32,000 nt of DNA from Gemmata obscuriglobus (GTDB lineage Bacteria; Planctomycetota; Planctomycetia; Gemmatales; Gemmataceae). The notes beneath the pieces were generated by a model. It did not search any database. It saw only the letters and a program-made list of their open reading frames with translations, and was not told where the DNA came from. The position numbers were made by a program, and so were the translations under genes. Each line of letters starts with the position of its first letter. Position 1 is the first letter of the stretch. Below, one piece after another: positions 4,546 through 27,196 of the stretch. The stretch lies in NCBI RefSeq assembly GCF_008065095.1, contig NZ_CP042911.1, positions 210,001 through 242,000 of the forward strand, written 5' to 3'.

Positions 4546-4563
4546 GCAGAACGCGGAATGCGG

Positions 4564-4619
4564 AACGCGGCGTTGCAGACCGTAACCACCTCGCTGGTTA
4601 CGGTCTGCAACGCCGCGTT
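4564..4619 (+). terminator. Intrinsic terminator after the ABC permease
   Basis: Perfect 24-bp stem (4564-4587 'aacgcggcgttgcagaccgtaacc' pairs with 4596-4619) and an 8-nt loop, followed by 'ttgtgtt'. Confidence 0.8.
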
Positions 4620-4763
4620 TTGTGTTCCGTACTTCGCACTTAGCTGGTGCGCGTTTCCTGAGCTAGATCTATGGCACTTTCAGGCACGGCATGATACTCT
4701 GTTATTGTGCGGAGCAAGTTCTAAACGGCGATCGCGGCTTCCTCTCCCGGAAGCGTTTACTCA

Positions 4764-10153: not shown

Positions 10154-10163
10154 GTGCGGACGC

Positions 10164-10211
10164 GCGCGAGGGCGGGCGACCAAATCGAGATTTGGTCGCC
10201 CGCCCTCGCGC
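10164..10211. terminator. Bidirectional terminator hairpin between convergent genes
   Basis: Perfect 21-bp stem (10164-10184 'gcgcgagggcgggcgaccaaa' pairs with 10191-10211) and a 6-nt loop 'tcgaga'. It lies between the LapA-like gene and ligA. Confidence 0.8.
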
Positions 10212-10229
10212 ACTTTCGTACCTGAGAAC

Positions 10230-12764
<2,535 letters not shown>

Positions 12765-12768
<4 letters not shown>

Positions 12769-13046
12769 TGCCACGGCCCACTCCCCCCGCGGGACCATTT
12801 CTCCCATTGCGATAGTTGAAACGCCTTATCTTCCGCTCGCACGCGTTCCCAAGCGGCGAGTTCGTCCTCCGACATCCACGCCCCGAACGCGTCCATCAGG
12901 ACGAGGCGTCGTTGGATCGCTTCGGGGCTGTTGTCATCATCTGCTGGGAGCGGCGTTGCGATCGTTACCTGCGTCCCTTCCGGTAAGGTGACCGGCCCGT
13001 CAAGGACTACTTTGCCGTCCCGGATTATGCCACGAATCGTGCTCAT
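12765..13046 (-). CDS. AF2212/DUF104-type antitoxin (93 aa)
   Basis: ATG at 13046 with SD 'GGAGGG'. 'IRDGKVVLDGPVTLPEGTQVTIA'. It is overlap-coupled to the PIN gene. Confidence 0.7.
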
Positions 13047-13103
13047 CGGAATGCCCTCCGCCGGCTGGTATCCGTCATTGTAACACGGGCCGGCGTGGCT
13101 CGA

Positions 13104-14610: not shown

Positions 14611-14760
14611 TCAGAGAAGCAGAAAAGGCGGTTTCACCGCAGAGGGCTCAAGAGCGCGCAGAGAGAACGAAGGCACCAAGGCGGAATTGCTCACTCCTTG
14701 GTGTTTGTTTCTCTCTGCGTACTCTCGTGCCCTCTGCGGTGAAACCGCCTTTGTTCTTGA
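14611..14760. repeat. ~150-bp composite palindrome filling a convergent intergenic gap (probable bidirectional terminator or structured element)
   Basis: Perfect 23-bp outer stem (14625-14647 pairs with 14729-14751). Inner stems are 11 bp (14657-14667 with 14709-14719) and 8 bp (14674-14681 with 14696-14703). Confidence 0.8.
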
Positions 14761-17775: not shown

Positions 17776-18717
17776 TCAATCGGCAGCGAGCGAAAAATCG
17801 AACACCTGGTAGCGGTGGTCACTGCTACTGTTTAGCCCGCCAAGTCGGTACCGGACGGGAGTTATCCGCGGGCCGTGCAGACAGTGATCGAGGTCGTAGA
17901 TCGGCACCGGAACGGGCCAAGTTGCACCCCAACCGCCACCGGCAGTGTAATAGGCGTGAGCGTAACCGGCCGGTAGCTCCGTCAGGGCACGGGACCGGCG
18001 CGGGGCATTGAAGTCGCCGACGATCAGGTCCGGTCGGTGTCGCTCGATCAGCGCATTCACCTCGCGCAGCAACGGGTTACGAGCGACCCACACGCTAGAC
18101 GGCAGATCGAGTACGAACAGAGTGATCGGGCACCCGTCCGGCGCCCAGGTCACGGCCTGGACTTCGAATCCGTCCCGGTCAACCAGCCATCCGTCTGCGC
18201 GCAAGTTGCCCCGTCCGACCACGGCCAGGTTCGCAAAAGTGGCCGCTCGGTATTCGGCTCCGAGTTGATCACGCAACACCCCGACGTGGGCGGCGTTGAC
18301 CGCGTCCGTAAGCACGTACAGATCCGCACGTTCTGCCAGGAGGTGTTCACCGACACCCGATCGGGCCGGGCGCCCGGCCGTGTTCCAGTGAACGACTCGA
18401 AATCGGCCCGTGCCATCGGCCGGAATGTACTCGGCGCGGTTCTCGATCAGGCCGACGAACGCGACCACCGGAAGCGCGCCGCCGGCAGCCAGGAGCGCCG
18501 CCCGTCGTCTTCCAGTCGCGGCGTACATGAACGCGATGGCGACCAAAACGGCGGCCACGACGACCGACGGGATGTAGAAGCAGACGCCGGTGATCCAGGT
18601 GGTATCGCGAGCAAGTTGGCCGACGCCCCAGGCGGCGAGAAGGCACACTGCTCCGGGCGCCACTGCGGTGTACCCACGAGCGAACAGAGACCGAGCGGTT
18701 GATTGCGAGGGCGACAT
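17776..18717 (-). CDS. Membrane-anchored endonuclease/exonuclease/phosphatase (EEP) family protein; cluster gene D
   Basis: ATG at 18717, 13 nt after the stop of gene C. About three N-terminal TM helices. EEP core 'FRVVHWN', 'DLYVLTD', 'LIVGDFN' and terminal 'SDHRYQVFDF'. Confidence 0.8.
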   Translation of the reverse strand: MSPSQSTARSLFARGYTAVAPGAVCLLAAWGVGQLARDTTWITGVCFYIPSVVVAAVLVAIAFMYAATGRRRAALLAAGGALPVVAFVGLIENRAEYIPADGTGRFRVVHWNTAGRPARSGVGEHLLAERADLYVLTDAVNAAHVGVLRDQLGAEYRAATFANLAVVGRGNLRADGWLVDRDGFEVQAVTWAPDGCPITLFVLDLPSSVWVARNPLLREVNALIERHRPDLIVGDFNAPRRSRALTELPAGYAHAYYTAGGGWGATWPVPVPIYDLDHCLHGPRITPVRYRLGGLNSSSDHRYQVFDFSLAAD

Positions 18718-18730
18718 GGCGAATTCACTG

Positions 18731-21457
18731 CTATGGACCAGAAACGGCGAACAGGAACACGATGAACACAACCGTGAACAGCACCAACCCCAGGCACCCG
18801 CTCTTCTTCGCCTTCTTGTGCCGCTTTTTTCGGCCCTTCGAGTGCCGGTCGTCCTCGTCGTCATCAGACGATTGCTCTTCGCGGTCGGGCACAAAAGCCG
18901 ATCGGGAGGCATTCTTTTGAGGTCGCGAGATTTGCCGGCGCAGCCGCTCTACCGCAAGCGGGTCCAGCGCCGTCGACTGCGACGCGCTCTCGATCAGCGC
19001 CGCGAGGTTCATGTCCGGCACGCATGCGAGAATCAGGTGCGCTTGCAGCGCGCCGCGTGCGCGGGTGGGGCCGTCGTCGGAAAGGCGCACCGCCTCACTC
19101 GCGACCCGTCGAGCGGCGTTAAACGTCCCGTCCGTCGGGAAGCACACCCGGAACAGTTCGACGACCGGCGCCAGTTCGTCGGCCCCGTCGGGCAGGGCGA
19201 GGTCGGCGCCGCCGAGTTGCTTGTACACGACCCGCACAAGGTCGATGCGTTCCACCCCGAACGTGTCGCAGGCCTGCGGGACTTCGTCCGGGGTATCGAG
19301 CGGAATCGCAGTCGGGTCATTCACCCACCTCACCAGCGCGTTCGCCGCGAACAGTCGCGCAACGCCACCCGGGGGCAGCGCCTGCACCAGCCGCGCGCCG
19401 CTGGCGGTCAGCCGTTCGGCGGCGAGACGCAGGTGGGCCTGGACCTTTCGTTCCCAGCGGTGGATGACCACCGTTTCGTCCCCACTCGCAGCTCCGAGCA
19501 GGTCCGGCGACAGCAGCGCCGGGCTGAGCAGTTCCAGGTACCCGGCCCACACGTCGCGACCGGCGCCGTCACCGCCGAACCCGACCAGCAGGTGCGCGAG
19601 CCGGTTGTTCTCCAGAAGGAAATCGCCCCACGCGCCCTGGAGCATTTCGACGATGTGGCACAGCTTCAACCAGTCGCCCGGTTCGAGAGCGCCGGCCGCG
19701 AGCAGCCGGTCCATCAGTCCGGCGGCTGCGGGTGTGTACGGCGCGAACAGCGTCGTGAGCAGGGCGGGCTCGGTATCGAGGAACGGCCCCGCGGCGCGCA
19801 CGTACGCCGCGGCCGCGGCCGGAGGGGCGGCCAAGAGGTACTCGCGGGCGTGGGTCCGCATTGTGTCGCGATCGGGCGGCGGTACATGCGCGAGCCAGTC
19901 GAACCGATCGTCCGCGAGTACCACGAACGCAACGTACCCGGCCCAGTCCGGTTGCGTGTGGAGCAGCGGCTCCAGTTCCCCCGCCGTAACGGGCACCAGC
20001 AGCGCGCGGGGCGGGAACTGGTTCACGTCCGCGCAGGCGGTCCGCAACTCGGACCGCGCGGCGACGGGCAACCGGGACAGCTTCGCTTCGTTCTTCTCGC
20101 GGCCCACCAGCTTGTCGAGCAGCCGTCGCGCCTCGTCCGCGCCGACCGACTCGCGCAGCGCCGACCAGCACGCGCCCCAGCGGCGGAGGTCGTCCCGCAA
20201 AAGCGCGGCGATCGCGTCTTCCCAGAGCTCGCGGGCGTGCTCGGGCCGGGCGATCAGTTCGCGGAACGCGGCCCTCACGTCGGGACGCGCCAGCGCGGGT
20301 TCCTTCACCACGGCCCACACGCGCGTCACTCGCGCGGCCAGCTCCTCCCGCGCGAGCGGGTCGGCCTGGAGCGCGAGCAGGTCGCCGACGCTGGCGGTTC
20401 CGGCGTCGGTGCGGGCCAACCGGCGGGTGCGGGCGAGCGCGGCGCCGGCGCGGGGCAGCCCGCTCGGGTCCGGCCCGACCGCTTGCCGCACCGCGGGTAA
20501 CAGGCCCCACTCGCCGGCCGCCGCCAGTTCGACCAGCGCGGCGAGGCCAGTGCCGGCATCGCCCCCGTCCGGTGCGCGCAGCTCGGGCGACGAACGGGCG
20601 GGCGCGAAGGTGTCGAGGGCGATGCCGCGGGTGGTGCCGAGGTCCGGTTCGAGCCCGCGCTCGGGGCTACCGGTGTACGTGCCGACCACCTCCGCGAGCT
20701 TGTAATCCCGCAGGTTCCGCTGGTGCGGCTCGAACGTGCTGAACGTCAGGTCGTCGGTGACGGCTGGCGGGAGCAGCCGCACCGCACCGTAGAGGAGCAG
20801 GGCCACCAGACCGGGCTCGGCGTGAACGAACAGCCGGCGGCGTGCGGCGTCCTCCTCCTCGGCAAGTAGGAGCATCGCGCGGAGCATACGGGCGAACAGC
20901 GCGCGGCGCTCGGGCGCAGAGGCGCGGAGGCGCGAGGGGCACACGGTCCGGCTCAGTTCGGTCGGGCCGGAGGCACCGTCGTTCAGGAACGCGGCGAGGG
21001 CGTCGTCGTTCACCAGTTCGCCAGGGGGCAGCCCGGCGTTGCGCGGCAGTGCCTTCGATTCTGCGGGCGGGTAACTTGTCACCCACTCCTCGCTCCCCCA
21101 GGAGCGCAGCACCTCAGCGGGCTCGGCAGCGGGGAGCAGGAGCAGGTGCGAGAAGTACGAGCGGTCGCGGCCGACGGTGTCTTTTGCGAGGTACGCCGAG
21201 TGAACGGCCCACACGCGACCGCCCCTCGGGACTTTGGTGCGGGCCAGCCGACGTGGCGCGAACTCGGGCGCCGGCGGGTCGCGCCACAGTTCGAGGGGCA
21301 GTTCGTAGGGCGGGTACTGGAACGCGGCGTCGAGCGCGGCCGGGTCGGTGACGGACGCGGCGCGGACGGTGTACCCGGGGTCGTTCCGGACGCTGTCCGC
21401 GACGGCGCAGTGGGTGACGTAGAACTGGTCACCGCCCGCTTCCGGCACGCGCCCCAT
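18731..21457 (-). CDS. 908-aa tail-anchored protein with a GAP1-N2-like N-terminal Cys/His domain; cluster gene C
   Basis: ATG at 21457 with 'AGGGGA' upstream. 'DQFYVTHCAVADSVRNDPGYTVRAASV' (Cys17), 'GRDRSYFSHLLLL' (His104) and 'LRSWGSEEW' resemble, from memory, the GAP1-N2 pattern 'QLYYTSC..G..G..GFQ..A.S' / 'GNYFAH' / 'LW.s..W'. The body is Ala/Leu/Arg-rich and helical. The charged tail 'SSDDDEDDRHSKGRKKRHKKAKK' is followed by a C-terminal TM 'CLGLVLFTVVFIVFLFAV'. I am confident of the CDS; the family assignment needs an HMM check. Confidence 0.7.
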   Translation of the reverse strand: MGRVPEAGGDQFYVTHCAVADSVRNDPGYTVRAASVTDPAALDAAFQYPPYELPLELWRDPPAPEFAPRRLARTKVPRGGRVWAVHSAYLAKDTVGRDRSYFSHLLLLPAAEPAEVLRSWGSEEWVTSYPPAESKALPRNAGLPPGELVNDDALAAFLNDGASGPTELSRTVCPSRLRASAPERRALFARMLRAMLLLAEEEDAARRRLFVHAEPGLVALLLYGAVRLLPPAVTDDLTFSTFEPHQRNLRDYKLAEVVGTYTGSPERGLEPDLGTTRGIALDTFAPARSSPELRAPDGGDAGTGLAALVELAAAGEWGLLPAVRQAVGPDPSGLPRAGAALARTRRLARTDAGTASVGDLLALQADPLAREELAARVTRVWAVVKEPALARPDVRAAFRELIARPEHARELWEDAIAALLRDDLRRWGACWSALRESVGADEARRLLDKLVGREKNEAKLSRLPVAARSELRTACADVNQFPPRALLVPVTAGELEPLLHTQPDWAGYVAFVVLADDRFDWLAHVPPPDRDTMRTHAREYLLAAPPAAAAAYVRAAGPFLDTEPALLTTLFAPYTPAAAGLMDRLLAAGALEPGDWLKLCHIVEMLQGAWGDFLLENNRLAHLLVGFGGDGAGRDVWAGYLELLSPALLSPDLLGAASGDETVVIHRWERKVQAHLRLAAERLTASGARLVQALPPGGVARLFAANALVRWVNDPTAIPLDTPDEVPQACDTFGVERIDLVRVVYKQLGGADLALPDGADELAPVVELFRVCFPTDGTFNAARRVASEAVRLSDDGPTRARGALQAHLILACVPDMNLAALIESASQSTALDPLAVERLRRQISRPQKNASRSAFVPDREEQSSDDDEDDRHSKGRKKRHKKAKKSGCLGLVLFTVVFIVFLFAVSGP

Positions 21458-21619
21458 GTGCTGTCCCCTGTGTTCAAGTGCCAGGTTCCGAATCCGATGG
21501 GGAGCGTTCGGTGATTACAGCCGCTGATGTCGTTCTGGTCCGGTGCGCGGCCCGCTCGCGGCGCGAACAGTGCGTTGAGCTTCAGGACCACTGCTCTCAT
21601 TCATGGTCCGGTTGCGGAT

Positions 21620-21717
21620 GTCTGTTTATGGCCCATGTCTTTGTGGCACAGGCATTCCTGCCTGTGCAGCCATTTCGCACCGCACAGACAGGAATGTCTG
21701 TGCCACAAGAAACAGAC
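21620..21717 (-). other. Large imperfect hairpin in the B-C intergenic region
   Basis: The core arms 21640-21667 and 21682-21709 pair over about 28 bp with one mismatch and one G-U pair, around a 14-nt loop. A 7-bp outer stem (21620-21626 with 21711-21717) lies across an internal loop. No U-tract follows on the minus strand. Confidence 0.7.
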
Positions 21718-21795
21718 GCAACTAACCGGATCGTGGATCAGCAAGCCTGGGTGCTTTCGCACCGACTCGCGGGCCGCACACCGGACCGGAGCCGG

Positions 21796-24726
21796 TCACC
21801 AGCGGGTGCCGGTCGGGCTCGCGGTGCCGGAACCGACCGGGACCGGTCCGATGTTGAGCGCGGGTCCGTAGATCGTCTTCCAGCCCAGCTCCACCACCGG
21901 CCACACGGTGACGTAGGCGTGCGTGGCGCCGGCGGGCGGCACCAGCGTGACGCCGCCGCCCTCGCGCTGGTGGTTCTCGGCCAGGCAGTTGAGGCGCGAG
22001 TACGGGTCCGCTTCCGCCGGGTCGGTGAGGAACCGCCGGGCGTCCACCGCGACGACGCAGTGCGCGATCAGCCCGTGCCCGCCCCACGACCAGCACGCCT
22101 TCACCAGCCCGCCGCGCTTGCCCGTGATCGTGTACGCGGGGTACGCCGGGACCAGGCGCGCGTCGCCCGCGAGCCGGGCGCGCACCTGCGCTTCGATGGC
22201 GGCCCTCGTCCCGGCGTCGAACGCGTCGTGGTGCTCGCGCAAGAGGGCCATGTCTTCGGGGGCGAGCGGGCTGCCGGTCGTGATCCGCTGCCGGATGGCG
22301 ACCACCCGCTCCGCGCGCGCCAGCAGGTCCCCCACCTCGGCCGCCCGCGCCACCAGCGGCGGGTAGTCCGTGAGGTCCGGCCCCGGCGCGCCGAGCCGCG
22401 CGAGCAGCGTAAACATGTCGCGCGCCTTGAGCGCCTCGGACACCTTGGCCCACTTCTCGAGCCGGTCGCGGGCCAGCGTGAGCCGCTCGCGCAGCTCCTC
22501 GCGGTCCACGCACCCGGTGAGCAGCTTCCCGTGTTCGCCCCACAGCGCCAGCCACTTCTGGTCCTGCCGGTCCTTGCGCCGCTCTTCGCGATCGATGCTC
22601 GCGAACCGGTCGAGCAGCTTGCGCCGCACCACCGCCTCCTCGGCCCGCCGGAACAGCCCGGGGTTCACCTTGTCGAGGCGGGCCGCGAACCGGAGGTTCC
22701 GCGCCTTGAGGCGGTCGTAGGCGGTCGCGATGGCCCGGTCCGACGGCTGCGGCCGGTCCGCCTCGCGGCGCAGCTCGGCCAGCAGTTGCACCGACTCGGA
22801 GCCCTCGAGCACCCGGACGGTGTGCGGGTGCGGGTAGTTCGGCGGCAGCTTGCCCGCCGCGGCGAGCACCGCCTCCTCCGGGCCGCCCTGTTCGGCGCTC
22901 CGGATCGCCCGGTCCAGCGCCTCGACGAGGGCGAGCCGGGCGCGGGCCTCGGTCACGCGTGCGGCGAACGGCGCCGCCTCGCCGCACCCGCCGAGCCCCG
23001 CCCCGTCCCCCCAGGCGGCGACCAGCTTGGCGTCGTTCTCGTGGGACGCGACGGCGGGGACGCGGCGCAGCTTCTCCAGCGCCGGCCACCAGCGGGCCGC
23101 GTTCTCGCCGCGGGCGCGGTGTATGGGGGTGAGAGACGGGTGCGGCGGGCCGGCCGTGAGCACCCCCTGCCACGCGTCGGCCAGCTCGCGCTCGACTTGC
23201 GGGTTCTTGGCGCACGCCGCCAGGAACGCGTCGGCGGCGCGGATGCGGATGCGCCAGCCGTTCGCGGCGGCCTCGTAGGCGCGGGCCTCCGCGGCGCCCG
23301 ACAGTTTTGGGGCCGAGTCGCTCCAGAGCTTCACGAGCGTGCGCCCGTCGCCCGGGTTCACGGTCGCGGCCTTCAGCGCGTCGAGCAGCGCGACCTGTCC
23401 GGCCGCGGCCCGCGCGGCGGTCAGGACTTGGGGCTCCAGCCAGTCGTCGAGCAGCGCGGGCTGGTACGCGGCGGCGGCCGCTCGCGGGTTCCGCTCGTCG
23501 AGCGCCCGCTTGAGCGCGTCGCGGGCGGCGACCCGCTGGCGCGCGGCGTCGCAGGTGACGCGCACGTCGGGCGGAAGGGCACGCCCGGCGGCCGGCAGCC
23601 GTTCGCACTCGGCCGCGATGCGGGGCCAGTCCTTGACTCGCGCGTCGCACAGCTCCTTCAGCGCGGCGACGGGATCGGCGCCGCCCCTGAGGTCCGCGGG
23701 CAGGTCCTTCCCGGCGCGCTGGAGCCGGACCGTCTCCGTCTCGATCTGCGCCCAGTCGCGCGCGGACACCGTGAGCAGCGCCCGGAGCCGGGCGAACGGG
23801 TCAAGGGTGAATGGCGGGATCTGGGCGAACGGCTTGTTGAGCGACGCGCGGAGGTTCCGCGCCCACTCCGCGACCTCGGGGTCCTTCGACCGCATCAGGT
23901 CCGGCCAGAGCTGCGACTTCGCGGGCCGCTCCATGTCCGCGGGGGTGAACAGCAGATTCTCGTTGTCCGTCTTGAGGACGTACTTCACGTACAGTTGCGG
24001 GTCCGCGGCGATCGCGCGGAGTGCGACCAGGACGACCCAGGCCGAGAAGTGGTCGAGGTCAGCGCCGAGCCGCTCCGCGGCCCGCGCCGGGTGCTGGTAC
24101 GCGGGCTTGCCGAACTCCAACTGGTCGAGCCGCTGCTTCGGGTCGGCGGGGGCCAGCGCCGGGACGCACATGCCGTCGTAGTCGACCAGCACCGGGGCGT
24201 CGTTGACCACCAGCACGTTGTCGTGCTGGAGGTCACCGTGCGCAATCTGCGTCGCCTGGAGCTGCTGCACCAGCCCGACCCAGCTCTCGGCCATCCGCTT
24301 CAGGGCTGCGACGTCGGGCACCTTCCGTTCCGTCGTTTGGCGCACCCACTCGCCGAGCGCGACCCCCTTCACCCAGGCCATCGTGAGGGTCGGGTACCAC
24401 GCCTTCCCGACGCGGATGCCCTCGGTGTGGTACTGGAACTTGACCACGCACGGCGGCTTCTTCGGCCCGAGCGTCCGCTCGAGGTAGTCGGACACCGCCT
24501 TATACCGCCGGGCCCGGTCCTCGTTGGGGAAGTTGAACAGTTTGAGCGCGACGACCCCTTTAGGGCCGGTCATCTTGTACACGCTGGCGAACGCGCCGCT
24601 GCGGGCGCGGGGCACGCCCATCGGGCTGCGCTCCGCCTGGCTCTGCCGCAAATCCGGGTCGCGGAACGCGGTGTCCGGGTTCTGGAGCGAGTCCTTGTAG
24701 TCGGACTGTGTGGGCCAGCTCGCCAT
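21796..24726 (-). CDS. Protein-kinase-fold protein (976 aa) with a long degenerate helical-repeat region and a distinct C-terminal module; cluster gene B
   Basis: ATG at 24726 (the track's start at 24798 is GTG). 'SGAFASVYK' (glycine-loop equivalent), 'VALK' (Lys62), catalytic loop 'IAHGDLQHDNVLV' (Asp165, Asn170) and 'VDYDG' (DFG equivalent). About 8-9 degenerate ~50-60-aa units follow (e.g. 'ALKRALDERNPRAAAAAYQPALLDDW', 'LLDALKAATVNPGDGRTLVKLW', 'LVEALDRAIRSAEQGGPEEAVLAAA'). The last ~110 aa read 'ACWSWGGHGLIAHCVVAV...YVTVWPVVELGW'. Confidence 0.85.
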   Translation of the reverse strand: MASWPTQSDYKDSLQNPDTAFRDPDLRQSQAERSPMGVPRARSGAFASVYKMTGPKGVVALKLFNFPNEDRARRYKAVSDYLERTLGPKKPPCVVKFQYHTEGIRVGKAWYPTLTMAWVKGVALGEWVRQTTERKVPDVAALKRMAESWVGLVQQLQATQIAHGDLQHDNVLVVNDAPVLVDYDGMCVPALAPADPKQRLDQLEFGKPAYQHPARAAERLGADLDHFSAWVVLVALRAIAADPQLYVKYVLKTDNENLLFTPADMERPAKSQLWPDLMRSKDPEVAEWARNLRASLNKPFAQIPPFTLDPFARLRALLTVSARDWAQIETETVRLQRAGKDLPADLRGGADPVAALKELCDARVKDWPRIAAECERLPAAGRALPPDVRVTCDAARQRVAARDALKRALDERNPRAAAAAYQPALLDDWLEPQVLTAARAAAGQVALLDALKAATVNPGDGRTLVKLWSDSAPKLSGAAEARAYEAAANGWRIRIRAADAFLAACAKNPQVERELADAWQGVLTAGPPHPSLTPIHRARGENAARWWPALEKLRRVPAVASHENDAKLVAAWGDGAGLGGCGEAAPFAARVTEARARLALVEALDRAIRSAEQGGPEEAVLAAAGKLPPNYPHPHTVRVLEGSESVQLLAELRREADRPQPSDRAIATAYDRLKARNLRFAARLDKVNPGLFRRAEEAVVRRKLLDRFASIDREERRKDRQDQKWLALWGEHGKLLTGCVDREELRERLTLARDRLEKWAKVSEALKARDMFTLLARLGAPGPDLTDYPPLVARAAEVGDLLARAERVVAIRQRITTGSPLAPEDMALLREHHDAFDAGTRAAIEAQVRARLAGDARLVPAYPAYTITGKRGGLVKACWSWGGHGLIAHCVVAVDARRFLTDPAEADPYSRLNCLAENHQREGGGVTLVPPAGATHAYVTVWPVVELGWKTIYGPALNIGPVPVGSGTASPTGTRW

Positions 24727-24833
24727 TGTCCTGCTACGTTCCTTTGGCCTGGCGAGCGGGGGCTCACGCCCCAACGTCACGCGAATGCAACCAGCCACCG
24801 GGCGTTCAGTCGTTTCAAGTTCGTTATGCGTGC

Positions 24834-24899
24834 CACCCGCCCGCTGACGCAGGCGGTTCGACCGCAGTTCGTCGAACCGCCTGCGTCAGCGGGCGGGTG
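24834..24899 (-). other. Perfect 29-bp-stem hairpin in the A-B intergenic region (terminator or attenuator candidate)
   Basis: 24834-24862 'cacccgcccgctgacgcaggcggttcgac' is the exact reverse complement of 24871-24899. The loop is 8 nt. No U-tract follows on the minus strand. Confidence 0.8.
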
Positions 24900-24985
24900 T
24901 AACCTCGGCGCGTCTCGATCCCGCGACCGATCTCATCAGCACCTTACCTCCTTGAAACCACTGGCATTCGTTCGACCTGTAGGGC

Positions 24986-27196
24986 TCACTCTCTCCGCTC
25001 ACCGGCGAAAACCTCGTACCCGTGCATGTGGAGCAGCCACAAGAAAGGCTCCGCTACCCCAAACGGCGCGATCGTGCGTTTCGACAGGTCCTCAACCCCC
25101 AGTTCGTTCTCGAACAGGCTCACCGACGACACTGGGAAGAACAGCACCTGCCTCCCGAAGTAGCTCTCCACGACGGCCCGCACGTCCACGCCGCGGAATA
25201 TCAACTCTAACATGTCCTCGACCAGATCGCTGCGCTCCCGCACAAGGTCCAGGGTGGTGCGCTTCGGCTGCGCCGGCGTCAGGTCGCCCAACAACTTGCG
25301 GACGAACTGCACCGACTGGCCCGCGATCGGGTTGCGGGTCACCAGCAGGTCGAACTTCGGGATCACCACCGCCACCGGGACCGGGATCACGTCCCCGGGC
25401 GCCACCCGGCGCGCCTCCCGCATGTCGGCCATAAACTCGTTCAGTGCCGCCAGTTGCCGGTCGAGCGTCACCCCGCCCTTGCGCCCGTCGAGCTGGGTCG
25501 GGTCGAGGAACAGCATGAACCCGTCCATTTTAACCGCCTGCTTCTTCAGGCGGTCCACGTCGATCTTCTGGTTCACCAGCTCGCCCGAGTAGTCGAACAG
25601 GTTCACTAGCGCGGTGTTGGCGCCCGCCGGATCGATATCCCGGACGTGCATCATAACCGGGTCCGGCGGGGTGTTCACGTCGTGCAGGGTGTTGCCCGCG
25701 TCGCGCTTCAGGTTCAGGATGAGGTCGATGTAGAGGTCGAACCGCTCGTCCCCGAGCGAGGGGGCCGCAATGATGGTCGCGGCCGTCGGGGCCACCTGCT
25801 TACGGACCTTGTCGTAGGCGGTCGCGAGCAGGTGCGTTTTGCCGCTGTTCCGCACGCCCACCACCGGGAAGCAGAGCCGGCGGACGCGCTGGTAGCTGCG
25901 CAAGAACCTGAATCCGCAAGTCTTGCACTCGACGTATCCCGATTCGGTGGGCTCCGCCGTGGCCGGCCCGGGTTTGCGTTTCGGCTGCGGCGGCTTTCGG
26001 TTCGCGGCCCGGTAGCGCGGGCGTGTCGCGGCCTCGTCTTCTGCGGCGAACCCCTCGGGTGCGGAAATCGTGCCCGTTTTCTCGACCACGAGCTTTTCGC
26101 TGAAGCACCGGGGGCACTTCTTCGCGTCCGCTTTGATCCGGGCGGCCTCTGTGCGCACTGCGTGCCGATAGGGCAGAACCGCCAGCCCGAACAGCAGCGC
26201 GGCCGCGCCGCACCGAACCGCCGCGAACCCGATCGCCCGCCACCGGGCGCCGCCCCGGAGTTCATCGAGTTTGGCTCGGTCGATCGCGAGCTGGGCCTGA
26301 TCGGTTTCCGCTTCCTGCGTGAACCGGACGGCAAGCCGCGCGTCGCGCGCCGCGGATCGGAGCCGCTCCCAAACGAGGGATTCGCCCTCACGCACCACCT
26401 TTTCGGCGGATGTCCCGGGTGCGGCGACCAATTTCGCCCACGAGTCGGCCGCGGCCGCCCACTTTTTGTCCGCCTCGGCTTCCGCCGCCTCGGCCCGTGC
26501 GGTCGCTTCCTTCGTGCTGGCGGTCAGTTCGCCTTCTTCACGCACGGCCCAGACGGCGAAGCCCGGGTCGAAGGAGGGCGAGCACCCTGAGACAGCGGGG
26601 AGCACCAGCACCAGTGCCACGCCCGCGGCACGCCGCAAGCGGCGAAGCGACACCCGCTGCGCCCGCGCGCCCAACCCGCGCGCCACCGCGAACACGACCG
26701 CCGCGCACACCAGCAGCCCGACATCGGCGGGGGTGAGCTGAAATGAGCGGTGCGTACCGGCCTCGAGGTCGAACCCGTAGGCCGTCTGCTGCTGGTCCGC
26801 GTACCGGTGGAACGCGACCTTTTGCTTGTACACCTCTTCCCACTCGCGCCGCGCGGCGTCCGCCCGCGCCCGCGCCGACTCCGACATCCTCAGCGCGGCG
26901 TCGCGGAGTGCGTCGTAGTCTCTGCCGAGTATGGGGACCAGTTCGTTGACCAGCACCGACGGGTCTTGCGTCTGCCCGACCGATCGGTCGACCGGGCGCG
27001 GGGGCGAAATGAGGTCGGCCTCCCACCCGGCGGCCTCCCGCCGGGCGTGCTGCCGGTGCCAGTCGTACCGCAACCCGGCCAACCGCTCCGCTTCGGGGAG
27101 CGGTTCGGCACGGGCCGGCCCGCCGATCGCCAACACAGCCAGCACGGCACCGAGCATCAGGGCGCGGCGGCGGGGCCGGCAGTAAGATTCGGCCAT
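24986..27196 (-). CDS. Multi-pass membrane protein with a zinc ribbon and a C-terminal P-loop GTPase-like domain (736 aa); cluster gene A
   Basis: ATG at 27196 (the track's start at 27232 is ATT). Signal peptide 'LMLGAVLAVLAIGGPARA'. Three TM helices: 'VGLLVCAAVVFAVARGL', 'AGVALVLVLPAVSG' and 'AIGFAAVRCGAAALLFGLAVL'. Zn ribbon 'CPRC'...'CKTC' (residues 361-427). Walker A 'GVRNSGKT' (nt 25835-25858). G3/Walker B 'LVNLFDYSGE'. NKxD-like 'VVIPKFDLL'. Confidence 0.85.
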   Translation of the reverse strand: MAESYCRPRRRALMLGAVLAVLAIGGPARAEPLPEAERLAGLRYDWHRQHARREAAGWEADLISPPRPVDRSVGQTQDPSVLVNELVPILGRDYDALRDAALRMSESARARADAARREWEEVYKQKVAFHRYADQQQTAYGFDLEAGTHRSFQLTPADVGLLVCAAVVFAVARGLGARAQRVSLRRLRRAAGVALVLVLPAVSGCSPSFDPGFAVWAVREEGELTASTKEATARAEAAEAEADKKWAAAADSWAKLVAAPGTSAEKVVREGESLVWERLRSAARDARLAVRFTQEAETDQAQLAIDRAKLDELRGGARWRAIGFAAVRCGAAALLFGLAVLPYRHAVRTEAARIKADAKKCPRCFSEKLVVEKTGTISAPEGFAAEDEAATRPRYRAANRKPPQPKRKPGPATAEPTESGYVECKTCGFRFLRSYQRVRRLCFPVVGVRNSGKTHLLATAYDKVRKQVAPTAATIIAAPSLGDERFDLYIDLILNLKRDAGNTLHDVNTPPDPVMMHVRDIDPAGANTALVNLFDYSGELVNQKIDVDRLKKQAVKMDGFMLFLDPTQLDGRKGGVTLDRQLAALNEFMADMREARRVAPGDVIPVPVAVVIPKFDLLVTRNPIAGQSVQFVRKLLGDLTPAQPKRTTLDLVRERSDLVEDMLELIFRGVDVRAVVESYFGRQVLFFPVSSVSLFENELGVEDLSKRTIAPFGVAEPFLWLLHMHGYEVFAGERRE

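What the first reader, a model, noticed from the sequence alone, without database searches (positions are those of the whole stretch)
17776..27196. Four-gene membrane-anchored GTPase / kinase / GAP1-like / EEP cluster: candidate uncharacterised NTP-dependent conflict or signalling system
Four large genes run co-directionally on the minus strand. A (24986-27196) has a signal peptide, 3 TM helices, a zinc ribbon and a P-loop GTPase. B (21796-24726) has a protein-kinase fold with intact K/D/N/D catalytic residues, about 9 degenerate helical repeats and a beta-looking C-terminal module. C (18731-21457) is a 908-aa tail-anchored protein whose N-terminal Cys17/His104 domain resembles the GAP1-N2 domain that the Aravind group described next to GTPases in NTP-dependent conflict systems (this is my recollection, not verified). 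D (17776-18717) has 3 TM helices and an EEP nuclease/phosphatase fold, and starts 13 nt after C. An NTPase switch, a kinase, a giant helical adaptor and a hydrolytic effector follow the general logic of anti-phage and conflict systems. Three of the four proteins are membrane-tethered with predicted cytoplasmic catalytic domains. I do not recognise this combination as any named defence system. The single (not double) GTPase fused to a Zn ribbon and a periplasm-exposed N-terminal region also differs from the GAP1 systems I remember. Caveats: there are no flanking mobile-element or defence genes, composition looks like the rest of the window, and a housekeeping envelope-signalling role is equally possible.
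Basis: partly seen in the sequence, partly recalled or inferred. Interest (0 to 1): 0.88.

Follow-up and report, generated by a model that had tools for sequence, protein, structure and literature searches.

The report
Truncated GAP1-N2 GTPase–kinase system, Gemmata
Three of the four genes form an already-catalogued but never-tested bacterial "GTPase + GAP1" conflict/signalling module whose kinase is of the anti-phage TerY-P type; this Gemmata copy has lost the module's other genes, and the fourth gene (a membrane phosphoesterase) is only a lineage-specific neighbour.

Summary
The four ORFs and their domains are real. Pfam places A in DO-GTPase2, C in GAP1-N2 plus GAP1-M, and D in Exo_endo_phos, all above the curated cut-offs. 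The kinase domain of B matches the PADLOC model STK_OB, the TerY-P kinase, at 2.6e-54.

In 17 planctomycete loci the order A-B-C is conserved. D is absent from all 28 GAP1-selected loci (L001-L028). C is usually followed there by two unknown proteins, a TerY-like vWA protein and a PP2C phosphatase, so the full module is DO-GTPase/GAP1 plus a TerY-P triad. None of these extra genes is in the window.

D belongs to a large family of stand-alone membrane EEP proteins that sits in unrelated contexts elsewhere. Only the closest relative, Gemmata sp. JC717, shares D, and that genome has cleanly lost C. Gemmata SH-PL17 has B alone.

A, B and C are intact and under purifying selection (dN/dS 0.16-0.31). 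The flanks are housekeeping genes in every genome examined.

Verdict: this is a truncated planctomycete variant of a known, computationally defined system, and its function is untested. One lead remains: the AF2 model of GAP1 has a longin-like N-domain, an alpha/beta domain and an alpha-solenoid, possibly a DENN-like GTPase regulator.

The parts
24986..27196 (-). Gene A: membrane-anchored DO-GTPase2. The TM/periplasmic-loop region is about nt 26177-27163, the Cys4 zinc ribbon about nt 25916-26116, and the GTPase domain about nt 24989-25876.
   Evidence: Pfam DO-GTPase2, 34.4 bits against a cut-off of 27. Motifs and hydrophobic segments. ZnR cysteines, Walker A, Walker B DxxGE and [PT]KxD are conserved in 16 orthologues. 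Orthologue upstream of B in 17 loci.
24834..24899 (.). Perfect 29-bp-stem hairpin in the A-B intergenic gap. It occupies the position where six related loci carry a small 23S_rRNA_IVP-family gene.
21796..24726 (-). Gene B: soluble TerY-P-type Ser/Thr kinase (about nt 23827-24726), a roughly 540-aa helical array (about nt 22168-23799) and a C-terminal beta domain (about nt 21838-22152).
   Evidence: PADLOC STK_OB 2.6e-54 over aa 3-316. AF2 model, pLDDT 86.6. Foldseek hits to kinases. Catalytic residues invariant. It is the best-conserved of the three proteins in most loci.
21641..21708 (.). 27-bp-stem hairpin (93% complementary) in the B-C intergenic gap.
18731..21457 (-). Gene C: tail-anchored GAP1. 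GAP1-N2 is about nt 21041-21430, GAP1-M about nt 20708-20923, the alpha-solenoid about nt 18923-20545, and the TM anchor about nt 18743-18799.
   Evidence: Pfam GAP1-N2 36.5 bits and GAP1-M 26.8 bits, both against a cut-off of 24. AF2 model, pLDDT 87.1. Foldseek hits to ARM/HEAT/karyopherin-like solenoids, plus DENND10. Named GobsT_02150 of Gemmata obscuriglobus.
17776..18717 (-). Gene D: stand-alone membrane EEP phosphoesterase (EEP domain about nt 17815-18387). It is probably co-transcribed with C but is not part of the conserved system.
   Evidence: Pfam Exo_endo_phos 26.8 bits against 24.5. 13-nt gap to C with no hairpin. Absent from 28 GAP1 loci. The family has 147 representatives at E<=1e-30, and among the best 150 listed nearly all full-length ones are about 290-390 aa. 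Homologues in L029 and L034 have no A/B/C nearby.

Best explanation
A, B and C are a truncated planctomycete copy of the GAP1-N2-type, DO-GTPase-centred system of Kaur et al. 2020.

In its complete form in relatives, the order is DO-GTPase2, an optional small four-helix-bundle gene, the kinase, GAP1-N2, two unknown proteins, a TerY-like vWA protein, a PP2C phosphatase and one further gene. That form joins the GTPase/GAP1 switch to a TerY-P-like kinase/phosphatase/vWA triad.

The proposed mechanism is inferred, not shown:
1. A sits in the inner membrane with two periplasmic helical loops and a cytoplasmic zinc ribbon plus GTPase. It acts as a GTP-dependent switch.
2. The tail-anchored GAP1 binds and regulates the GTPase through its conserved N2 and M domains. 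Its long alpha-solenoid serves as a scaffold.
3. The catalytically intact kinase B phosphorylates partner proteins to set or relay the switch state. In complete systems the PP2C phosphatase reverses this.

In G. obscuriglobus the vWA/PP2C half has been lost, leaving a GTPase-kinase-GAP1 core that is still under purifying selection. D is an unrelated, probably periplasm-facing membrane phosphoesterase. It became the downstream neighbour only in the obscuriglobus/JC717 lineage.
For: Shown:
- Family membership of A and C, above the Pfam cut-offs.
- B's kinase domain matches PADLOC STK_OB at 2.6e-54. In related loci the downstream genes match PADLOC TerY (3.2e-77) and PP2C (2.1e-26), which have consecutive model numbers.
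- TerY-P is described as a vWA + PP2C + STK triad, with the OB-fused-kinase version acting as a stand-alone anti-phage system (PMC11090510; PMC7699616).
- A-B-C is collinear in 17 loci from Gemmata, Frigoriglobus, Isosphaera and other Planctomycetia MAGs.
- E, F, G and H follow C in most of those loci but are absent from the window.
- No G orthologue on a ~9-Mb contig appears among the 120 best G homologues.
- Catalytic motifs are invariant, and dN/dS is 0.16-0.31.
- The published description covers ZnR- and TM-bearing DO-GTPases, tail-anchored GAP1, presence in planctomycetes and a kinase/PP2C/vWA theme.
- D is absent from all 28 GAP1 loci. It belongs to a large stand-alone family, and its homologues lie in unrelated contexts.
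Against: - No member of this system class has been tested experimentally, so the switch/scaffold/kinase roles are inference.
- The FNIII-repeat protein said to typify GAP1-N2 systems was not detected in the window, nor in E/F of relatives by Pfam.
- Only the kinase part of STK_OB is matched (profile positions 2-298 of 562), so an OB fold in B is unproven.
- Flanks are housekeeping genes in every genome examined, and no mobile or defence genes are nearby. This fits a cellular signalling role as well as a conflict role.
- C and D are 13 nt apart, and D stays next to B in JC717, so a functional link to D is not excluded.
- The absence of E-H elsewhere in the 9-Mb genome rests on a listing of cluster representatives, not on a genome scan.
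Confidence: 0.6

Rival explanations
1. The module is a lineage-conserved cellular signalling device of Gemmatales/Isosphaerales, acting in envelope, division or development, and not an immunity or conflict system. A membrane GTPase would sense a periplasmic cue, and a kinase/PP2C pair would relay it.
For: - The flanks differ between genomes but are always housekeeping: LigA, NDK and MFS in the window; DnaA/DnaN/GyrB and MoaA/MoaE elsewhere.
- There are no integrases, transposases or known defence genes nearby. Only B gives any PADLOC hit in the window.
- Gene order is conserved across divergent genomes.
- Some components are unusually well conserved. The vWA protein G is 79-89% identical across most loci where GAP1 is 40-57% identical, and the kinase domain of B averages 67% identity.
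- A has two periplasmic loops.
Against: - The module is dispensable and eroding within one genus. C is deleted in JC717, B stands alone in SH-PL17, and E-H are lost in G. obscuriglobus and L001.
- TerY-P-like triads defend E. coli against T7-like phages.
- One B-family member is fused to a TIR domain.
- GAP1-N2 paralogues in the same genomes carry variable vWA or FGE-type C-terminal domains, as expected for effector swapping.
Confidence: 0.3
2. One reading: A-B-C-D is one four-gene unit in which the EEP protein D is the hydrolytic effector, released or activated by the GTPase/kinase/GAP1 machinery. D would have replaced the usual downstream genes as a newly captured effector.
For: - D starts 13 nt after C on the same strand with no intervening hairpin, whereas A-B and B-C are separated by long hairpins.
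- D remains directly downstream of the kinase in JC717.
- A D homologue in L029 is preceded by an FHA (phospho-Thr-binding) gene, which hints at a link to Ser/Thr phospho-signalling.
- Kaur et al. describe effectors that vary between close relatives and are encoded downstream of GAP1.
Against: - D is absent from all 28 GAP1-containing loci, including L001, which is 76-82% nt identical to the window across A, B and C.
- JC717 keeps D although GAP1 is deleted.
- D-family proteins form a large stand-alone family.
- In the two other contexts with enough flank, no GTPase, kinase or GAP1 is present.
- The positive-inside rule puts the EEP domain on the periplasmic side, away from the cytoplasmic catalytic domains of A, B and C (inference).
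- EEP is not among the effectors named in the text of the 2020 paper.
Confidence: 0.1

Closest known systems
GAP1-N2-type GTPase-centric (DO-GTPase/GAP1) conflict systems (Kaur, Burroughs, Iyer & Aravind, eLife 2020; Pfam PF19993, PF20013, PF20014)
   Same: - A DO-GTPase2 with a zinc ribbon, N-terminal TM helices and a Glu in Walker B.
- A GAP1 with N2 and M domains and a C-terminal TM, encoded downstream of the GTPase.
- Membrane-proximal organisation and occurrence in planctomycetes.
- In relatives, a kinase + PP2C + vWA 'third theme'.
   Different: - The paper states that the kinase/PP2C/vWA theme is restricted to actinobacteria; here it is widespread in Planctomycetes.
- The kinase lies between the GTPase and GAP1. 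It carries a roughly 540-aa helical array plus a beta domain rather than a zinc ribbon or TM helices.
- No FNIII-repeat protein was detected.
- There is only one GTPase.
- The G. obscuriglobus copy lacks the vWA, PP2C and other downstream genes.
TerY-P triad (Anantharaman et al. 2012; anti-phage version of Gao et al. 2020; PADLOC models PP2C/STK_OB/TerY)
   Same: The kinase domain of B matches STK_OB at 2.6e-54. In related loci the same operon encodes TerY-like vWA (3.2e-77) and PP2C (2.1e-26) proteins.
   Different: - In the window only the kinase is present, so by PADLOC logic this is not a TerY-P system.
- The OB or ZnR part of the profile is not matched. B instead has a long helical array and an unassigned beta domain.
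- The triad is embedded in a DO-GTPase/GAP1 operon rather than standing alone or attached to CoCoNuT/McrBC systems.
Eukaryotic DENN/longin-domain regulators of small GTPases, such as DENND10 (a structural resemblance only)
   Same: - In the AF2 model of C, aa 9-118 have a beta-beta-alpha-beta-beta-beta-alpha order, followed by an alpha/beta domain and a helical region.
- Foldseek lists DENND10 (8p0v_M): probability 0.97, 333 aligned columns, TM-score 0.34 normalised to the target.
- The protein is genetically coupled to a GTPase.
   Different: - The hit is weak (E 0.058) and ranks 35th, behind generic solenoid matches.
- There is no sequence similarity.
- The individual domains were not searched separately.
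- The partner GTPase is not a Rab/Arf-type GTPase.

Membership tests
GAP1-N2-type DO-GTPase system (Kaur et al. 2020) | A DO-GTPase of type 2: TRAFAC GTPase with a conserved Glu in Walker B, often with an N-terminal ZnR and TM helices | tested here: met
   Pfam PF19993, 34.4 bits against a cut-off of 27. GVRNSGKT, DYSGE, a Cys4 ribbon and four hydrophobic segments are present and invariant in 16 orthologues.
GAP1-N2-type DO-GTPase system (Kaur et al. 2020) | A GAP1 protein with GAP1-N2 and GAP1-M domains, encoded downstream of the GTPase | tested here: met
   PF20013 36.5 bits and PF20014 26.8 bits, both against a cut-off of 24. C lies downstream of A, with B in between. The order is conserved in 17 loci.
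GAP1-N2-type DO-GTPase system (Kaur et al. 2020) | A GAP1-C domain | tested here: inconclusive
   No Pfam hit C-terminal of GAP1-M. The AF2 model shows a well-predicted alpha-solenoid at aa 305-844. It was not compared with a GAP1-C profile.
GAP1-N2-type DO-GTPase system (Kaur et al. 2020) | An associated protein with rapidly evolving FNIII repeats | tested here: not met
   No fn3-type Pfam hit in A-D, in the other window ORFs, or in E/F of related loci even at E<=5. A divergent Ig-like fold, for example the beta domain of B, cannot be excluded without domain-level structure searches.
GAP1-N2-type DO-GTPase system (Kaur et al. 2020) | Two paralogous GTPases (present in 38% of systems, so not obligatory) | tested here: not met
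   There is only one DO-GTPase hit in the window and in the related loci.
GAP1-N2 'third theme' (kinase + PP2C + stand-alone vWA) | A catalytically active protein kinase linked to PP2C and vWA genes | tested here: not met
   The kinase is present and intact. PP2C and vWA genes are absent from the window, although they are present in 10-11 related loci.
TerY-P anti-phage system (PADLOC/Gao 2020) | All three genes together: TerY (vWA), PP2C and STK | tested here: not met
   In the window only STK_OB is matched, by B at 2.6e-54. There is no TerY or PP2C homologue in the 32 kb.
TerY-P anti-phage system (PADLOC/Gao 2020) | A kinase fused C-terminally to an OB fold (or a zinc ribbon) | tested here: inconclusive
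   Only profile positions 2-298 of 562 align. B has a beta domain at aa 859-963 with a strand/helix order compatible with an OB-like barrel. It could not be searched on its own.
EEP (Exo_endo_phos) superfamily, for D | A profile match with conserved catalytic Asn/Asp/His motifs | tested here: met
   PF03372, 26.8 bits against a cut-off of 24.5, covering profile positions 3-225 of 225. The motifs VHWN, GDFN and SDH are visible in the sequence.

The most novel reading that the evidence does not exclude
GAP1 (gene C) may be a bacterial counterpart of eukaryotic longin/DENN-type GTPase regulators. It would have a longin-like N2 domain, an alpha/beta M domain with the invariant HAEPG motif, and a karyopherin-like alpha-solenoid, all tail-anchored to the membrane. 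It would act as the exchange factor or GTPase-activating platform for the membrane DO-GTPase, while a TerY-P-type kinase writes the switch state. If so, the A-B-C core retained in Gemmata would be a self-sufficient membrane GTPase-regulator-kinase machine, in a phylum noted for its endomembranes, rather than a decayed defence operon.
Probability: 0.2. Interest if true: 0.7.

Novelty: new variant of a known kind. Interest (0 to 1): 0.35.

Why it matters
- DO-GTPase/GAP1 systems were predicted in about 1,100 organisms, but none has been tested.
- This work shows that in Planctomycetes the GTPase/GAP1 pair is joined to a TerY-P-type kinase/phosphatase/vWA triad, the only part with a demonstrated anti-phage relative.
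- It defines a conserved 7-9-gene module.
- It documents natural 'deletion mutants' within one genus: no vWA/PP2C half in G. obscuriglobus, no GAP1 in JC717, and the kinase alone in SH-PL17. These tell an experimenter which parts are separable.
- G. obscuriglobus is culturable and genetically tractable, so the A-B-C core here is a practical entry point.
- For the scan itself, the main result is corrective. The cluster is a known family, and the EEP 'effector' should be dropped from it.

Tried and rejected
- PADLOC and NCBIfam on A, C and D gave no hits.
- The supplement of Kaur et al. 2020 has no mention of Gemmata, GAP1-N2 or DO-GTPase in the one file held.
- A literature search for 'STK_OB' found nothing. 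Its meaning was inferred from the consecutive PADLOC models PP2C, STK_OB and TerY, and from descriptions of TerY-P.
- PDB sequence searches gave only noise for D, only generic kinases for the B profile, and nothing for F.
- Pfam on E and F at E<=5 showed no FNIII or any other convincing domain.
- Rfam over the whole window found nothing.
- The promoter/terminator consensus scan was not above shuffled expectation.
- BLAST of B against itself detected no repeats.
- tblastn of E, F, G, H, the IVP gene and the gene after PP2C against the window found nothing.
- The idea that D is a recurrent GAP1 effector was rejected on synteny.
- The idea that the Cys17/His104 pair marks a thiol peptidase was not pursued. 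The fold search gave no peptidase hits.
- Full-length Foldseek searches were dominated by the kinase domain (B) and by the solenoid (C). The beta domain of B and the N2/M domains of C could therefore not be assigned.


Full report
**What is in the sequence**

The window comes from Gemmata obscuriglobus: gene C is 100% identical to GobsT_02150. Four minus-strand ORFs lie at the stated coordinates. Their GC pattern by codon position is that of real genes in this ~66% GC genome.

- **A (736 aa).** It has four hydrophobic segments at aa 12-30, 159-177, 191-209 and 322-340. It also has a Cys4 zinc ribbon (CPRC361, CKTC424), Walker A GVRNSGKT447, Walker B DYSGE535 and PKFD613. The basic N-terminus and the basic loop at aa 178-190 imply two periplasmic loops of about 128 and 112 residues and a cytoplasmic ribbon plus GTPase. 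This topology is inference from the positive-inside rule.
- **B (976 aa).** It has no TM segment. It carries HGD165...N170 and D182-Y-D184.
- **C (908 aa).** It ends in a basic stretch followed by a single TM helix at aa 887-905, so it is a tail anchor.
- **D (313 aa).** It has 2-3 N-terminal TM helices and EEP motifs, and starts 13 nt after the stop codon of C.

**Family assignment**

Pfam places A in DO-GTPase2 (34.4 bits, cut-off 27). It places C in GAP1-N2 (36.5 bits, cut-off 24) and GAP1-M (26.8 bits, cut-off 24), and D in Exo_endo_phos (26.8 bits, cut-off 24.5). B gets only sub-threshold kinase hits there. In PADLOC, however, aa 3-316 of B match model PDLC02223 'STK_OB' at 2.6e-54.

The DO-GTPase and GAP1 families were defined by Kaur, Burroughs, Iyer and Aravind (eLife 2020, PMC7159879). 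They describe the following:
- GTPases with a Walker-B glutamate; 60% carry zinc ribbons and 13% carry N-terminal TM segments.
- GAP1 proteins that often have C-terminal TM helices.
- Occurrence in planctomycetes.
- A 'third theme' combining a kinase, a PP2C phosphatase and a stand-alone vWA protein, said to be restricted to actinobacteria.

The cluster is not an unnamed system, and its single ZnR/TM GTPase lies inside the published description.

**Synteny**

An alignment of GAP1 homologues retrieved 28 loci from GTDB species genomes. tblastn with A-D against them shows the order A-B-C on one strand in 17 loci. These come from Gemmata, Frigoriglobus, Isosphaera, Gemmataceae and other Planctomycetia MAGs. 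Identities are 37-82% for A, 38-79% for B and 37-73% for C.

D has no homologue in any of the 28 loci, even at E<=10. In most loci C is instead followed on the same strand by four genes:
- E, about 500 aa, no Pfam hit.
- F, about 700 aa, no convincing Pfam hit.
- G, about 300 aa, a vWA protein.
- H, about 610 aa, a PP2C phosphatase.

PADLOC identifies G as TerY (3.2e-77) and H as PP2C (2.1e-26). Together with STK_OB these are the three consecutive PADLOC models PDLC02222-02224. The TerY-P triad is a TerY-like vWA protein, a PP2C phosphatase and a Ser/Thr kinase fused to a zinc ribbon or an OB fold. The OB version is a stand-alone anti-phage system active against T7-like phages (PMC11090510; PMC7699616).

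The complete planctomycete module is thus a DO-GTPase/GAP1 pair fused in one operon with a TerY-P-like triad plus two unknown proteins. Two more genes recur. A further same-strand gene follows PP2C in several loci. A small 23S_rRNA_IVP-family gene lies between A and B in six loci.

None of E, F, G, H, the IVP gene or the gene after PP2C is present in the 32-kb window.

**The copy in G. obscuriglobus is truncated**

Nucleotide homology with the relatives L001, L002 and L008 stops inside the 3' end of C and just upstream of A.

Among the 120 best homologues of G (identity 47% or more), none sits on a ~9-Mb contig or is named G. obscuriglobus, whereas C itself is recorded on a 9,032,617-nt contig. 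A close G orthologue therefore seems to be missing from the genome. This rests on a listing of cluster representatives, not on a genome scan.

The closest relative is Gemmata sp. JC717 (L030). Its sequence is collinear with the window through YetF, DUF892, MFS, A and B. It then jumps from 15 nt after the stop codon of B to the last 15 nt of C and continues into D. GAP1, window 18747-21780, is cleanly absent there.

Other relatives differ again:
- Gemmata sp. SH-PL17 and a second assembly carry B alone, between a Uma2 gene and a histidine kinase.
- In L009 and L019 a TPR gene and miaA are inserted between A and B.

The module is thus being dismantled in different ways within one genus. The retained genes are nevertheless intact:
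- dN/dS is 0.16-0.31 for A, B and C against four relatives.
- dN/dS is 0.22-0.27 for A, B and D against JC717, with 0.14 for the neighbouring MFS gene as a comparison.
- The ribbon cysteines, Walker A and Walker B DxxGE of A are invariant in 16 orthologues.
- HGD, N170, DYD and K51 of B are invariant in 38 homologues.

**Gene D**

An exhaustive HMMER search finds 147 representatives at E<=1e-30 and 531 at E<=1e-10. Among the best 150 listed, nearly all full-length ones are stand-alone proteins of about 290-390 aa, collinear over the TM region and the EEP domain.

In the two independent contexts with usable flanks there is no GTPase, kinase or GAP1:
- L029 (67% identity): an FHA gene upstream, with WD40, Uma2 and GH63-like genes around it.
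- L034 (46% identity): DUF1559 and an unrelated 972-aa protein.

The RRR loop between the second and third hydrophobic segments, together with the basic N-terminus, places the EEP domain outside the cytoplasm. This is inference.

D is probably co-transcribed with C. The gap is 13 nt with no hairpin, whereas 29-bp and 27-bp hairpins follow A and B, like those after other genes in the window.

The evidence says D is a lineage-specific neighbour, not a component. The residual case for D as a newly captured effector rests on three points: the tight spacing, its persistence next to B in JC717, and the FHA neighbour in L029. I rate that case at about 0.1.

**Structures**

- **B.** The AF2 model (38-sequence alignment, pLDDT 86.6) has a kinase domain at aa 1 to about 300, a continuous helical array at aa 310-853 and a beta domain at aa 859-963. 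The PDB Foldseek hits are all protein kinases, including JAK2, LIMK1, PknB, PknG and LanKC, at E about 2e-6. The helical array shows a recurring x-x-W motif roughly every 40-55 residues but no detectable self-similarity. Average identity to the query is 0.67 for the kinase, 0.44 for the array and 0.53 for the beta domain.
- **C.** The AF2 model (41 sequences, pLDDT 87.1, pTM 0.68) has an N2 domain with strand/helix order beta-beta-alpha-beta-beta-beta-alpha at aa 9-118. An alpha/beta M domain follows, containing the invariant HAEPG212-216. Next come an alpha-solenoid at aa 305-844, a disordered basic linker and the TM helix.
- **Foldseek on C.** Only weak hits were returned (best E 0.008), to ARM/HEAT/karyopherin solenoids. 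At rank 35 is the DENN protein DENND10 (E 0.058, probability 0.97, 333 aligned columns, target-normalised TM-score 0.34).
- **The DENN-like lead.** The beta-beta-alpha-beta-beta-beta-alpha order is that of longin domains; this is my own knowledge. The 2020 paper does not mention longin or DENN. I treat a DENN-like reading of GAP1 as a lead, not a result.

**Context and function**

The window has no mobile-element or defence genes around the cluster. Its other genes are:
- an ABC/FtsX transporter
- a sigma-54 activator
- MlaD/OmpA
- LigA
- a PIN-domain gene
- NDK
- an epimerase
- DUF1559
- MFS
- DUF892
- YetF
- a LuxR-type response regulator

In other genomes the module sits beside DnaA/DnaN/GyrB or molybdopterin genes. 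Composition is unremarkable. This does not look like a defence island, and a cellular signalling role remains a serious rival (about 0.3). Three things favour a conflict role:
- The demonstrated anti-phage activity of TerY-P relatives.
- The patchy erosion of the module.
- A B-family protein fused to TIR, and GAP1-N2 paralogues with swapped vWA or FGE-type C-terminal domains in the same genomes.

**Verdict**

- The locus is a truncated planctomycete variant of the GAP1-N2 DO-GTPase system with a TerY-P-type kinase.
- It extends the published kinase/PP2C/vWA theme beyond actinobacteria and supplies natural partial versions.
- It is not a new kind of system, and its function remains untested.

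Noticed in passing
L030 (Gemmata sp. JC717) 12931-12993, against window 18747-21780: The closest relative has a clean deletion of the whole GAP1 gene and the B-C spacer, leaving B directly followed by the D homologue. A and B remain intact there.
   Followed up: yes
L001 1566-1958; L014 6468-6875 (same contig as L038 9477-9884); L015 5728-6120; L018 6506-6898; L030 9561-9911: A small 23S_rRNA_IVP-family (four-helix-bundle, PF05635) gene sits between the GTPase and kinase genes in six related loci. It is absent from the window, where a 29-bp perfect hairpin occupies the gap.
   Followed up: partly
window 24834-24899, 21641-21708, 14624-14752, 4554-4629, 10154-10221: Long, near-perfect inverted repeats with 27-44-bp arms lie in intergenic gaps at gene ends across the window. 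They may be terminator- or stabiliser-like hairpins, or a dispersed palindromic element. Their sequences are not alike.
   Followed up: partly
L031/L032 10001-12922 (Gemmata sp. SH-PL17 and a second assembly): A full-length B orthologue (67% identity) stands alone with no DO-GTPase or GAP1 nearby, between a Uma2 gene and a histidine kinase. The kinase-repeat protein is therefore kept without its partners.
   Followed up: partly
L009 2804-6671 and L019 2894-6730: A TPR protein (opposite strand) and miaA are inserted between the GTPase and kinase genes, so A is separable from B-C.
   Followed up: partly
L029 9547-10924: The 67%-identical homologue of D is immediately preceded on the same strand by an FHA-domain gene. 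This hints that this membrane EEP family may be linked to Ser/Thr phospho-signalling.
   Followed up: no
P0239 / L037 10001-14263: A B-family protein (36% identity over 99% of B) carries an extra TIR domain (1420 aa). It sits next to giant proteins without annotation and an S1-P1 nuclease gene, with no GAP1 or DO-GTPase Pfam hit nearby.
   Followed up: partly
one search hits P0069, P0077, P0087, P0102, P0104; loci L022-L025: Gemmata and Frigoriglobus genomes hold shorter GAP1-N2/M paralogues whose C-terminal part is a vWA domain, an FGE-sulfatase-type domain or HEAT repeats. These are second GAP1-N2 systems in the same genomes.
   Followed up: no
window 12352-13103 (-): A PIN-domain (VapC-like) ORF has a small overlapping upstream ORF. 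This is a likely toxin-antitoxin pair just upstream of ligA on the minus strand.
   Followed up: no
B aa 51 and 62 (window ~24541-24576): The canonical beta3 lysine (K62) is Arg in 5 of 38 homologues, whereas K51 in the glycine-rich-loop strand is invariant. This is reminiscent of WNK-type kinases, which place the catalytic lysine in beta2.
   Followed up: partly
L010 19153-19941, L019 19378-20079, L009 19467-20156: A further conserved same-strand gene of about 780-870 aa with no Pfam hit follows the PP2C gene. It may be a ninth component of the complete module.
   Followed up: no
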